NCBI RefSeq assembly: GCF_009914755.1
Contig: NC_060926.1
Reading direction: 5' to 3' (one strand)
Origin: the human T2T-CHM13v2.0 reference genome, Homo sapiens
Length of the DNA: 64,000 bases
The notes beneath the pieces were generated by a model that saw only the letters and a program-made list of their open reading frames with translations, was not told where the DNA came from and did not search any database. Position numbers and translations under genes: made by a program. This document shows, one piece after another, positions 45,331-48,194 of this stretch (the stretch's first letter is position 1; every line of letters starts with the position of its first letter).

Positions 45331-45785
45331 AATAGCCTGGAAGAAACTGTTGAGGTCGATGCGTATGATACAATGAATTAAAATACATCAATATTTCTAG
45401 CAAAGAAATACTATCATTTTTACCTATACTTCAATTCATCCCTGATTTCATGAATATCACAATATAGAATTTGGTTATAATTTATTGTTTCATAGCAGTT
45501 AGTTTTTTGAAGCTGTGAAAACTCACAATAATTAGCAGCAAATAATTAATGTGCTTATAAAATACTCTGGGGAAATATGCCCTGACACTTAGTATCCCAA
45601 ATGGCATTACTCTTAAAAGCAATACATGTGACCCTCTGGCTATAATAGTAAAAAATAATTTTTAAAAATGAAGAACAAAGTAAACTCTTTTAAAGACTTA
45701 CTTTCAAATGTCACAATAGCAATAAATTATTGATTTCCACATCTAAAATTAATGTTTTTATTTATTTATTTATTTAGTTTTTTAA

Positions 45786-47455
45786 TTGATCGTTCTTGGA
45801 TGTTTCTCACAGAGGGGGACTTGGCAGGGTCATAGGACAACAGTGGAGGGAAGGTCAGCAGATAAACAAGTGAACAAAGGTCTCTGGTTTTCCTAGGCAG
45901 AGGACCCTGCGGCCTTCCGCAGTGTTTGTGTCCCTGGGTACTTGAGATTAGGGAGTGGTGATGACTCTTAACGAGCATGCTGCCTTCAAGCATCTGTTTA
46001 ACAAAGCACATCTTGCACCGCCCTTAATCCATTTAACCCTGACTGGACACAGCACATGTTTCAGAGAGCACAGGTTTGGGGGTAAGGTCACAGATCAACA
46101 GGATCCCAAGGCAGAAGAATTTTTCTTAGTACAGAACAAAATGAAAAGTCTCCCACGTCTACTTCTTTCCACACAGACAGGGCAACCATCCGATTTCTCA
46201 ATCTTTTCCCCACCTTTCCCCGCTTTCTATTCCACAAAACCGCCATTGTCATCATGGCCCGTTCTCAATGAGCTGTTGGGTACCCCTCCCAGACGGGGTG
46301 GTGGCCGGGCAGAGGGGCTCCTCACTTCCCAGTAGGGGCGGCCGGGCAGAGGCACCCCTCACCTCCCGGACGGGGCGGCCGGGCAGAGGCACCCCTCACC
46401 TCCCGGACGGGGCGGCTGGCCGGGCGGGGGGCTGACCCCCCCCACCTCCCTCCCGGACGGGGCGGCTGGCCGGGAGGGGGGCTGAACCCCCCGCCTCCCT
46501 CCCAGATGGGGCGGCTGGCCTGGCGGGGGCTGACCCCCACCTCCCTCCCAGACGGGGTGGCTGCCGGGCGGAGGGGCTCCTCACTTCTCAGACGGGGCGG
46601 CTGCCGGGCGGAGGGGCTCCTCACTTCTCAGACGGGGCGGTTGCCAGGCGGAGGGTCTCCTCCCTTCTCAGACGGGGCGGCTGGGCAGAGACGCTCCTCA
46701 CCTCCCAGACGGGGTCGCGGCCGGGCAGAGGCGCTCCTTACATCCCAGACAGGGCGGTGGGGCAAAGGCGCTCCCCACATCTCAGAAGATGGGTGGCCGG
46801 GCAGAGACACTCCTCACTTCCTAGATGGGATGGCGGCCGGGAAGAGGTGCTCCTCACTTCCTAGATGGGATGGCGGCCGGGCAGAGACCCTCCTCACTTT
46901 CCAGACTGGGCAGCCAGGCAGAGGGGCTCCTCATGTCCCAGACGATAGGCGGCCAGGCAGAGACGCTCCTCACTTCCCAGACGGGGTGGCGGCCAGGCAG
47001 AGGCTGCACTCTCGGCACTTTGGGAGGCCAAGGCAGGCGGCTGGGAGGTGGAGGTTGTAGCGAGCCAAGATCACGCCACTGCACTCCAGCCTGGGCACCA
47101 TTGAGCACTGAGTGAACCAGACACCGTCTGCAATCCCGGCACCTCGGGAGGCCGAGGCTGGCGGATCACTCGCGGTTAGGAGCTGGAGACCAGCCCAGCC
47201 AACACAGCAAAACCCCGTCTCCACCAAAAAAATACGAAAACCAGTCAGGCGTGGTGGCACGTGCCTGCAATCGCAGGCACTCGGCAGGCTGAGGCAGGAG
47301 ACTCAGGCAGGGAGGTTGCAGTGAGCCGAGATGGCAGCAGTACAGTCCAGCTTCGGCTTGGCATCAGAGGGAGACCGTGGAAAGAGAGGGAGAGGGAGAC
47401 CGTGGGGAGAGGGAGACCGTGGGGAGAGGGAGAGGGAGAGGGAGAGGGAGAGGGG
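45786..47455 (-). mobile_element. Full-length SVA retrotransposon (SVA_D-like)
   Basis: Minus strand reads (CCCTCT)n hexamer (~47371-47455), Alu-like domain (~47011-47370), GC-rich VNTR (~46284-47010) and SINE-R (~45786-46283) ending ...AAGAACGATCAATTAAAAAA. Subfamily call is from recalled diagnostics only. Confidence 0.96.
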
Positions 47456-47587
47456 TAATTTTGTATTTTTAGTAGAGATGGGGTTTCTCCATGTTGATCA
47501 GGACAGTCAAACTCCCAAACTCAGGTGATCCGCCCGCCTCGGGCTCCCAAAGTGCGGGGATTACAGGCATGAGCCACTGTGCCCGGC
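47456..47587 (-). mobile_element. AluSp left arm carried inside the SVA insertion
   Basis: Minus strand GCCGGGCACAGTGGCTCATGCCTGTAATCCC...CAACATGGAGAAACCCC...AAAAATACAAAATTA stops at the A-rich linker, directly before the SVA hexamers. Confidence 0.9.
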
Positions 47588-47824
47588 TAACTCAGGATTT
47601 TTCCCTTTGCTGATGTAGCCTGACAGCAGGAGGGAGCCTATAATAATGAGAAAGGCGCGAATCAAAAACAGCACAGTGGCAAGTGCGATGGCCTTATAAG
47701 GGATCTTAGGAGGGGTTTTCTTAAACTGAAGGTCCATGTAGCCATCGTCTGTGCTGGAGAGCCTTGAATATTTCACTTTACTACTGGGGATTCCAGTAGC
47801 CAGGTTGGTACGGGACGGCATCAT
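47561..47824 (-). CDS. Potential 87-aa TMEM230(1-74)-adaptor/Alu fusion ORF (translation unproven)
   Basis: ATGATG at 47824, open frame through the junction at 47603/47602, then [13 protein letters not shown] and a TAA inside the Alu at 47561. Confidence 0.3.
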
Positions 47825-47937
47825 AACAGGCTGACACAGCGGAGCGCCGCGCCAGGCCGCCCGCACACCCAGAGCTCGCCCACGGTTGGCAGCGCCCAAG
47901 GTTGCACGGCATGGCCCGCTTAAGTGCCACTCAGCCC
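47603..47937 (-). pseudogene. TMEM230: Processed, 3'-truncated TMEM230 copy (5' leader + codons 1-74)
   Basis: Translation [74 protein letters not shown] matches the TMEM230 N-terminus as I recall it (differences I30M, G56R). It is intronless, and the upstream sequence reads [21 protein letters not shown], exon 1 of the long isoform. Confidence 0.93.
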
Positions 47938-48160
47938 TAATGTTTTTATTTATGAAGTAACTTAACTTTTGGTAACATAATATATAACTTCTCTTTCACA
48001 GATTATTTTATTTTTTTAGAATTCTAGAGTTTGAATGAATCCAATTAAGTGTGCTCTGTGTGTCTTCTCAGCCTGCCCTTAGCAAGACTCACAATGTGAG
48101 TTCTGTTCTACTTGCTATCAGGAGAAACCGCACAGGAACCCAAAGAATACTGCCTGCTGG

Positions 48161-48194
<34 letters not shown>
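48161..48194 (+). repeat. A34 homopolymer not attached to a recognisable retroelement
   Basis: Visible directly in the sequence. Confidence 0.95.

What the first reader, a model, noticed from the sequence alone, without database searches (positions are those of the whole stretch)
47575..47615. Splice junction from TMEM230 into a cryptic acceptor just upstream of an Alu
Seen: TMEM230 homology stops exactly after ...AGC AAA GGG (G74) and continues AAAAATCCTGAGTTA then GCCGGGCAC (Alu start). From recall, G74/G75 is the last exon-exon boundary of TMEM230. The 15-nt adaptor is A-rich at its 5' end, like an Alu TSD. Inference: the exon donor spliced to an AG in front of the Alu TSD, creating an alternative terminal exon. 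Unlike MAST2-SVA_F1, where splicing goes into the SVA itself, this SVA keeps its hexamer and Alu-like domain.
Basis: partly seen in the sequence, partly recalled or inferred. Interest (0 to 1): 0.72.

Follow-up and report, generated by a model that had tools for sequence, protein, structure and literature searches.

The report
SVA carrying spliced TMEM230 exons
A jumping-gene copy (SVA) sitting in a neurexin-1 intron carries at its front three spliced exons of the chromosome-20 gene TMEM230 joined to a piece of an Alu repeat, a known way in which such elements shuffle exons around the genome.

Summary
On the minus strand, window 47937-45766 is one 2172-nt retrotransposed insert flanked by identical 16-nt target-site duplications.

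Its parts, in order:
- one untemplated G;
- TMEM230 exons of 97, 114 and 123 nt, joined exactly at the gene's GT/AG borders;
- a 147-nt piece made of the 15-nt adaptor and an Alu left arm;
- a complete SVA (CT-hexamers, Alu-like domain, VNTR, SINE-R, A-rich tail).

The adaptor plus Alu start has one other match in the genome, on chr20, on the TMEM230 strand. There it follows TTTTAATCCTTAG, and the adaptor is that Alu's own target-site duplication.

One detail is wrong. The acceptor is not in the last intron. It lies 1552 nt beyond the poly(A) site of the last exon, so that exon was skipped in a read-through transcript.

CHM13 has no SVA at the chr20 site and no sibling copy. I infer a lost or polymorphic source SVA in that Alu's A-rich linker.

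This is an ordinary member of a known kind: an SVA 5' transduction holding spliced upstream exons. The 2009 inventories could not be read.

The parts
47938..47953 (-). 5' target-site duplication, ATAAATAAAAACATTA
   Evidence: Identical 16-nt copy at 45750-45765.
47937..47937 (-). Single untemplated G at the 5' end of the insert
   Evidence: It is not part of the duplication (the 3' copy is followed by A) and not in chr20, which has C before GGCTGAGTGG. Reading it as a copied cap is my inference.
47840..47936 (-). TMEM230 first exon (5' UTR), 97 nt
   Evidence: Matches C20:5152484-5152388 with 1 mismatch. On chr20 it is followed by gtaagg.
47726..47839 (-). TMEM230 second exon, 114 nt, holds the start codon (ATG at 47824)
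   Evidence: Matches C20:5148864-5148751 with 2 mismatches. Flanked by ...ctgtag| and |gtaaat on chr20.
47603..47725 (-). TMEM230 third exon, 123 nt, ends at codon G74
   Evidence: Matches C20:5145730-5145608 with 1 mismatch. Flanked by ...cttccag| and GGG|gtaagc on chr20.
47588..47602 (-). 15-nt adaptor AAAAATCCTGAGTTA: first bases of the cryptic exon and 5' target-site duplication of the chr20 Alu
   Evidence: Identical at C20:5137721-5137707, preceded there by TTTTAATCCTTAG. The 3' copy lies after the Alu poly(A).
47456..47587 (-). Alu left arm up to the mid A-rich linker (...AAAAATACAAAATTA)
   Evidence: 2 mismatches to C20:5137706-5137575. On chr20 the Alu continues with GTTGGGCGTGG; here CT-hexamers follow.
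47366..47455 (-). SVA 5' CT-rich hexamer region, (CCCTCT)n with CCACGGTCTCCCTCT units
   Evidence: Tandem repeat finder rows at 47366-47454; sequence.
47005..47365 (-). SVA Alu-like domain, complete
   Evidence: Window 47400-47005 aligns over 391-396 of its 396 nt, at 96-97%, with all 39 other scored SVA copies of 4652 candidates.
46290..47004 (-). SVA VNTR (periods 37-50 nt)
   Evidence: Tandem repeat finder rows at 46303-47004. The border with SINE-R is approximate.
45784..46289 (-). SVA SINE-R domain, ending ...GATCAATT
   Evidence: 97.2-98.0% identical over 496 nt to 11 other SVAs. Its end is the same as theirs.
45766..45783 (-). Short degenerate A-rich tail, AAAAAACTAAATAAATAA
   Evidence: Its border with the duplication is ambiguous because both are A-rich.
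45750..45765 (-). 3' target-site duplication, ATAAATAAAAACATTA
47561..47824 (-). Chimeric ORF of 87 aa: TMEM230 residues 1-74 plus 13 residues from adaptor and Alu, then a stop
   Evidence: It differs from chr20 by I30M and G56R. No Pfam match. No evidence that it is expressed.

Best explanation
Window 47937-45766 (minus strand) is a single L1-mediated insertion of a chimeric RNA, placed in sense orientation in an NRXN1 intron.

Proposed origin of the RNA:
1. An SVA once sat on chr20, in the A-rich linker of an Alu about 1.7 kb downstream of the TMEM230 poly(A) site, in the gene's orientation.
2. A transcript started at the TMEM230 promoter.
3. Its first three exons were spliced normally.
4. 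The polymerase ran past the normal last exon and its poly(A) site.
5. The exon-3 donor (GGG|GTAAGC) was joined to a cryptic acceptor (TTTTAATCCTTAG|AAAAAT) 147 nt upstream of the SVA.
6. The new last exon ran through the Alu target-site duplication and left arm into the SVA, and ended at the SVA's own poly(A) signal.
7. L1 proteins copied this capped RNA in full into chr2.

Shown: the exon borders, the acceptor, the Alu duplication, the single pair of target-site duplications, and the absence of an SVA at the chr20 site in this genome.

Inferred: that a source SVA existed at chr20:5137575/4, and the read-through. The insert shows no sign of function. It is a 5'-transduced SVA with a dead partial retrocopy attached.
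For: - Exon borders. Three TMEM230 exons are joined exactly at chr20 GT/AG borders. All 481 nt of transduced sequence align without gaps to four chr20 pieces in genomic order on one strand, with 6 mismatches.
- Acceptor. The adaptor plus Alu start occurs only here and at C20:5137699-5137721. An AG with 78% pyrimidines at -20..-3 precedes it. By that crude measure it ranks 2nd of 124 AGs in the 1698 nt between the poly(A) site and the SVA junction.
- Adaptor. It is the Alu's target-site duplication.
- One event. A single pair of identical 16-nt duplications encloses the TMEM230 part and the SVA together.
- Full-length copy. An untemplated G precedes the first TMEM230 base.
- Source site. The Alu/SVA break follows CT|AAAAATACAAAATTA on chr20. 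This resembles the L1 endonuclease motif TT/AAAA quoted in PMC13174262 (passage), as expected if an SVA had inserted there with a 15-nt duplication.
- SVA ends. The SVA starts with its hexamers and has full Alu-like and SINE-R ends.
- Precedent. Spliced-exon 5' transductions of SVA, and a cryptic acceptor 15 bp upstream of an intronic L1, are described in print (passages of PMC12593883; PMC6139936; PMC13174262; PMC4859970).
Against: - No source SVA is present. C20:5128001-5156000 holds no VNTR or SINE-R match, and the Alu is intact at the supposed insertion point.
- No sibling copy shares the Alu/hexamer junction: only the query's own copy matched genome-wide at up to 3 mismatches.
- The acceptor lies beyond the gene's poly(A) site, so the model needs read-through and skipping of a last exon whose acceptor is stronger (83% against 78% pyrimidines).
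- No RNA data were available to show that this acceptor is ever used.
- The source's 3' target-site duplication cannot be seen, because the chr2 copy has no 3' transduction.
Confidence: 0.8

Rival explanations
1. Template switching or RNA ligation. L1 reverse transcriptase copied an ordinary SVA RNA from elsewhere to its 5' end. It then jumped to, or the SVA RNA had been ligated to, a separate TMEM230 read-through mRNA that already used the cryptic downstream exon, landing inside the Alu. No SVA ever sat on chr20.
For: No SVA at the chr20 site and no sibling copies. The break is exactly at the SVA 5' end, where a transcriptase runs out of template. Same-orientation chimeras made by template switching or RNA ligation are described for L1 (PMC13174262, passages).
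Against: There is no microhomology at the junction (AAAATTA|CCCCTCT here against AAAATTA|GTTGGG on chr20). The break follows an endonuclease-like A-rich site, which this model leaves to chance. It also needs a cryptic last exon used without an SVA poly(A) signal. In the L1 chimeras described there, U6 and most Alu partners are full-length (U3 is recurrently truncated) while the retroelement is 5'-truncated. Here the SVA is complete and the partner RNA is cut short at its 3' end.
Confidence: 0.12
2. Two separate insertions on chr2. First a partial retrocopy of a TMEM230 read-through transcript, primed internally at the Alu's A-rich linker. Later an SVA landed exactly at its 3' end.
For: Internal priming on A-rich stretches is a known variant (PMC4859970, passage). 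The Alu piece ends in an A-rich run.
Against: One identical 16-nt duplication pair encloses both parts, and no second pair flanks the SVA alone. The sequence after the SVA tail carries no copy of ACAAAATTA.
Confidence: 0.02
3. Trans-splicing between a TMEM230 pre-mRNA and a separate transcript that started downstream of the gene and ran into a chr20 SVA.
For: The acceptor lies outside the main transcription unit as marked by the poly(A) site.
Against: Donor and acceptor are on the same strand, in the same order and 7886 nt apart, so cis-splicing is the simpler reading. Sequence alone gives no test that separates the two.
Confidence: 0.03

Closest known systems
[quoted passage not shown] 2009 in PMC6139936)
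   Same: A host-gene promoter drives the transcript. Normal exon-exon splicing is followed by a run through flanking DNA into a complete SVA, ending at the SVA poly(A) site. The product is then retrotransposed with target-site duplications (passages; here).
   Different: Here three exons, two of them coding, are carried, and the last exon and poly(A) site of the gene are skipped. The final splice goes to a cryptic AG beyond the gene's 3' end, rather than the transcript reading on from an intron. The source SVA is absent from this genome.
SVA_F1 (MAST2 exon 1 to SVA), and the chimpanzee pt_SVA_D6 (STK40 exon 1 to SVA)
   Same: An upstream exon donor was spliced towards an SVA lying in sense orientation downstream, and the chimera retrotransposed (passages).
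   Different: In those elements the acceptor lies inside the Alu-like domain, so hexamers and most of that domain are lost, and they founded families of 84 and 94 copies. Here the acceptor is in flanking DNA 147 nt upstream, the SVA is intact, and there is one copy.
RAP1GDS1/L1PA2 chimeric L1 insertions (PMC13174262)
   Same: A host exon donor is spliced to a cryptic acceptor a few bases upstream of an intronic retroelement, in flanking DNA and not inside the element. The spliced RNA is then retrotransposed (passage).
   Different: That element is an L1 inside an intron, its source is still present and it has several offspring. Here the element is an SVA beyond the gene's 3' end, the source is missing and there is a single offspring.
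TMEM230 processed pseudogenes (chr11 copy at 97%; chr10 twice, chrX and chr12 at 79-82%)
   Same: Intron-less copies of the same mRNA made by L1.
   Different: The chr11 copy carries the normal last exon, 3' UTR and poly(A). The older ones were not inspected beyond their match rows. None carries the adaptor plus Alu junction.

Membership tests
SVA retrotransposon, canonical full-length | 5' (CCCTCT)n hexamer region | tested here: met
   47455-47366; tandem repeat finder rows and direct reading.
SVA retrotransposon, canonical full-length | Complete Alu-like domain | tested here: met
   Window 47400-47005 aligns over 391-396 of 396 nt, at 96-97%, with all 39 other scored copies.
SVA retrotransposon, canonical full-length | GC-rich VNTR | tested here: met
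   Arrays with periods of 37-50 nt at 46303-47004; GC 0.73.
SVA retrotransposon, canonical full-length | SINE-R domain with poly(A) signal and A tail | tested here: met
   97.2-98.0% to 11 SVAs over 496 nt. It shares their ...GATCAAT(T)AAAAA end, and 3 of the 11 share CAATTAAAAA.
L1-mediated (target-primed) insertion | Target-site duplication, A tail, endonuclease-like target | tested here: met
   16-nt identical duplication and an 18-nt degenerate A-rich tail. The target TC/ATAAAT is only a loose match to TT/AAAA.
SVA 5' transduction with spliced host exons | Non-SVA sequence between the 5' duplication and the hexamers that maps to one other locus | tested here: met
   481 nt map to chr20 with 6 mismatches.
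SVA 5' transduction with spliced host exons | Breaks in the transduced sequence coincide with GT/AG sites at the source | tested here: met
   All three junctions do.
SVA 5' transduction with spliced host exons | A source SVA directly downstream of the transduced flank | tested here: not met
   There is no SVA in C20:5128001-5156000 of this genome, and the Alu is intact. Other genomes could not be searched, so a polymorphic or lost source stays open.
SVA_F1 (MAST2) subfamily | Hexamers and most of the Alu-like domain replaced by MAST2 exon 1 (definition from PMC12593883) | tested here: not met
   Hexamers and the Alu-like domain are present, and the 5' sequence is from TMEM230. No MAST2 sequence was compared.
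TMEM230/TMEM134 protein family (PF05915) | Pfam match above the gathering score | tested here: not met
   The 87-aa ORF and its 74-aa TMEM230 part give no match. The skipped chr20 last exon does match: E 9.8e-13, 48.7 bits against a cut-off of 26.8. The chr2 copy lacks the part the profile recognises.
SVA subfamily A-F | Diagnostic substitutions against subfamily reference sequences | not testable with these tools
Only pairwise comparisons were made.

The most novel reading that the evidence does not exclude
No SVA ever sat next to TMEM230. The cryptic exon downstream of the gene is a genuine, SVA-independent alternative last exon. The chr2 insert is then a chimera made when L1 reverse transcriptase finished an SVA RNA and switched onto that mRNA inside its Alu. 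This would be an SVA-mRNA template-switch (or RNA-ligation) chimera that looks like a 5' transduction, and it would imply that some 'orphan-source' SVA transductions are not transductions at all.
Probability: 0.12. Interest if true: 0.5.

Novelty: new member of a known kind. Interest (0 to 1): 0.3.

Why it matters
The element is a clean, fully resolved example of exon shuffling by an SVA. Two coding exons and a 5' UTR exon of one gene were carried into an intron of another gene, NRXN1, in sense orientation.

It also records a splice event that skipped a gene's own last exon and poly(A) site in favour of a cryptic acceptor in front of a downstream repeat. This shows how a retroelement landing just past a gene can capture that gene's transcript.

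The practical value is modest:
- It flags a chr20 site where a polymorphic or extinct SVA source may be found in other genomes.
- It gives a partial TMEM230 retrocopy that could confuse read mapping for a gene discussed in Parkinson's disease papers (listing).

Nothing here suggests a new mechanism or a functional new gene.

Tried and rejected
- Sibling or source copies. The Alu/hexamer junction pattern (up to 3 mismatches) matched only the query's own copy. The adaptor/Alu pattern (up to 2 mismatches) matched only chr2 and chr20.
- An SVA near TMEM230. BLAST of the whole element against C20:5128001-5156000 gave 90 matches. The only ones of at least 90% identity and 60 nt were the four transduced pieces. 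The 27 matches starting after element position 880 were short Alu-type or A-rich hits.
- The chr11 match at 97% was first considered as a possible sibling or source. It is an ordinary full-length processed pseudogene with the normal last exon.
- Pfam on the chimeric ORF gave no family.
- Dating. Values obtained: 6 of 481 mismatches to chr20; 20 of 22 CpGs kept; 10-14 of 496 differences to 11 SVAs that are 98-99% alike among themselves; three substitutions in the last 40 nt of SINE-R that almost no other copy shares, with 3 other copies within 2 mismatches, each sharing one variant. These point to roughly 1-2% private divergence, so not a very recent insertion. Counts are small, and only 40 of 1667 candidates were scored, so I give no firm age or subfamily.
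- Literature. Full-text searches for SVA with TMEM230 (9 papers, all on other subjects judging by titles and abstract starts) and SVA with C20orf30 (1 unrelated paper) found no description of this element. A broad search was too loose to be useful.
- Damert 2009, Hancks 2009 and Hancks 2010 are not held.
- No splice-site scoring model was on hand. Only a crude pyrimidine count was used.

Full report
**What is in the window**

Read on the minus strand, window 47953-45750 holds one composite insert. Its parts, in order:

| Part | Window coordinates | Note |
|---|---|---|
| 5' target-site duplication | 47953-47938 | ATAAATAAAAACATTA, 16 nt |
| Single G | 47937 | untemplated |
| Unique sequence | 47936-47603 | 334 nt |
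| Adaptor | 47602-47588 | AAAAATCCTGAGTTA, 15 nt |
| Alu left arm | 47587-47456 | ends in its A-rich linker |
| SVA CT-hexamers | 47455-47366 | |
| SVA Alu-like domain | 47365-47005 | |
| SVA VNTR | 47004 to about 46290 | |
| SVA SINE-R | to 45784 | |
| A-rich tail | 45783-45766 | 18 nt, degenerate |
| 3' target-site duplication | 45765-45750 | same 16 nt |

The insert is 2172 nt long, of which 1690 nt are SVA. The hub's table puts NRXN1 on the minus strand, so the element lies in sense orientation in an NRXN1 intron. NCBI's repeat mask stops at 47592, so the 334-nt unique part is unmasked.

**Checking the observation**

A search of the window's own genome with 47936-47596 gave three chr20 pieces at 98-99% identity, all on the minus strand. 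They are C20:5152484-5152388, 5148865-5148751 and 5145733-5145608. The match ended at window 47603, the last G of ...AGCAAAGGG.

The same search found a 97% copy on chr11 and four older copies at 79-82% (chr10 twice, chrX, chr12). The chr11 copy is a full-length processed pseudogene with last exon, 3' UTR, poly(A) and flanking direct repeats. I used it as a stand-in for the mRNA.

Mapped to chr20, that pseudogene gives a four-exon gene whose last exon is 5140353-5139274. This last exon translates to a 46-residue tail that matches Pfam PF05915, 'Transmembrane proteins 230/134' (E 9.8e-13, 48.7 bits against a cut-off of 26.8). No chr20 annotation was available to me.

The window ORF has 87 residues: 74 of TMEM230 type, then [13 protein letters not shown] and a stop inside the Alu. 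It is the last exon-exon border of that four-exon mRNA.

**The splice sites**

On chr20 the three exons are bounded as follows:
- ...CTCCG|gtaagg
- ctgtag|CTGTG...CTTCAG|gtaaat
- cttccag|TTTAAG...AAAGGG|gtaagc

Allowing for one to three ambiguous bases at each BLAST border, the window joins them exactly at these points.

The 23-nt string across adaptor and Alu start occurs twice in the 3.1-Gb genome at up to two mismatches: here and at C20:5137699-5137721, minus strand. The reversed control pattern gave 0 matches.

On chr20 the sequence reads CATTACATATCTCATTTTAATCCTTAG|AAAAATCCTGAGTTA|GCCGGGCACAGTGG... At the far end of that Alu it reads ...(A)n TCCTGAGTTA|GATAAG.

It is preceded by a pyrimidine-rich tract ending in AG.

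A crude count of pyrimidines at -20..-3 gives 78% for this acceptor. The three true TMEM230 acceptors score 72%, 89% and 83%. The cryptic acceptor ranks 2nd of 124 AGs in the 1698 nt between the gene's poly(A) site and the SVA junction. This measure is my own and is not a trained splice model.

The acceptor is not in the last intron. It lies 1552 nt downstream of the poly(A) site of the last exon. An AATAAA stands about 20 nt before the end of the pseudogene match there. The acceptor is 7886 nt from the exon-3 donor.

The RNA must therefore have run past the normal poly(A) site, and splicing must have skipped the whole last exon.

Donor and acceptor are on one strand, in genomic order and close together, so I read this as cis-splicing of a read-through transcript.

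**One insertion, from a full-length capped RNA**

All 481 transduced bases align without gaps to the four chr20 pieces, with 6 mismatches. A single identical 16-nt duplication pair encloses the TMEM230 part and the SVA together, and no second pair flanks the SVA.

The extra G at 47937 is templated neither by the target site nor by chr20, which has C at that place. I take it as a copied cap. That reading is an inference from general knowledge of L1-mediated insertions.

**The Alu/SVA junction and the missing source**

In the window the Alu stops at ...CTACTAAAAATACAAAATTA and CCCCTCTCCCTCT follows. On chr20 the Alu continues with GTTGGGCGTGG.

CHM13 has no SVA there. BLAST of the whole element against C20:5128001-5156000 gave 90 matches. 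Only the four transduced pieces reach 90% identity over 60 nt or more, and nothing matches the VNTR or SINE-R. The junction string is unique in the genome at up to three mismatches, so this genome has no sibling and no source.

The break follows CT|AAAAATACAAAATTA. This resembles the L1 endonuclease motif TT/AAAA quoted in PMC13174262 (passage), with a 15-nt would-be duplication.

This is what an SVA insertion into the Alu linker would leave. It is why I prefer a lost or polymorphic source SVA (about 0.8) over template switching or RNA ligation (about 0.12).

The rival is not excluded:
- The break is at the very 5' end of the SVA, where a reverse transcriptase runs out of template.
- Absence of a source is what that rival predicts.

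Against the rival:
- There is no microhomology at the junction.
- The complete SVA joined to a 3'-truncated partner is the reverse of most of the L1 chimeras described in that paper.
- It needs the cryptic last exon to exist without an SVA poly(A) signal.

**State of the SVA and rough age**

The Alu-like region aligns over 391-396 of its 396 nt, at 96-97%, with all 39 other scored copies (of 4652 candidates, 40 scored).

The SINE-R differs at 10-14 of 496 positions from 11 other copies, which are 98-99% identical to each other. Only 40 of 1667 candidates were scored, so closer relatives may exist.

Three substitutions in the last 40 nt of SINE-R are close to private: only 3 other genomic copies lie within two mismatches, and each shares just one of the variants. 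The 3' end is the usual SVA end with no 3' transduction.

Twenty of 22 CpGs of the transduced part are kept. The four exonic differences all have the chr20 state in the chr11 pseudogene too, so they arose on the chr2 side. Two are coding and both change the residue (I30M, G56R), which fits an unconstrained copy.

With recalled neutral rates near 1e-9 per site per year, 1-2% private divergence suggests several to about ten million years. The counts are too small for more than 'not recent'. I did not assign a subfamily.

**Comparison with what is known**

The kind is established:
- PMC12593883 (passages) describes polymorphic SVAs whose 5' transductions arose by splicing into the SVA (MRPS18A), or by normal exon 1-2 splicing followed by read-through into the SVA (UQCRC1, LINC02916).
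[quoted passage not shown] 2009.
- PMC13174262 (passage) describes RAP1GDS1 exon 2 spliced to a cryptic acceptor 15 bp upstream of an intronic L1PA2. This is the nearest match in mechanism.

This element is not SVA_F1, because its hexamers and Alu-like domain are intact.

What is particular here is the skipping of the gene's own last exon and poly(A) site, the acceptor sitting in front of an Alu duplication beyond the gene, and the missing source.

**Is this copy already in print?**

Full-text searches for SVA with TMEM230 or with C20orf30 found only unrelated papers, judged from listings and abstract starts.

From recall, the abstract of Damert et al. 2009 reports a genome-wide inventory of 5'-transduced SVAs involving cryptic splice sites. 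A fixed chr2 copy would probably be listed there. I could not read that paper, Hancks et al. 2009 or Hancks and Kazazian 2010.

**Verdict**

The element is an ordinary member of a known class, with no sign of function. Interest is 0.3.

Noticed in passing
L002:1466-2940 (G000 C11, about 56628240-56629710): Full-length TMEM230 processed pseudogene, 97% identical over the part searched. It has the normal last exon, 3' UTR and poly(A), and near-identical flanking repeats (AAAGATGGCTAAATTGGA and AAAGATGGCTTAATTGGA). Its reading frame is broken (4 stops when translated). It starts about 30 nt further upstream in the first exon than the chr2 copy.
   Followed up: partly
L003, L004, L005, L009 (G000 C10:23277143, C23:106376526, C12:39489499, C10:92347933): Four older intron-less TMEM230 copies at 79-82% identity. 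Their sequences were not inspected.
   Followed up: no
L011:1599-1711, minus strand (G000 C20, about 5137797-5137909): A 5S rRNA pseudogene (Rfam RF00001, 41.3 bits against a gathering score of 38) lies about 75 nt upstream of the cryptic acceptor, in the same orientation as TMEM230.
   Followed up: partly
window 48161-48194: A pure A34 run on the plus strand, about 210 nt from the SVA's 5' target-site duplication. It may be the tail of another retroposed sequence. Not examined.
   Followed up: no
window 47907, 47829, 47735, 47659: The four exonic differences from chr20 are A>G, G>C, T>G and G>C, so three of four are transversions and two create new CpGs. This is an unusual spectrum for so few changes. 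It could be chance, reverse-transcriptase error or variants of the source allele.
   Followed up: partly
window 45785-45824: Three substitutions in the last 40 nt of SINE-R are almost private to this copy. One keeps a CG where the 11 compared SVAs have TG, which may mark an older or rare SVA lineage.
   Followed up: partly
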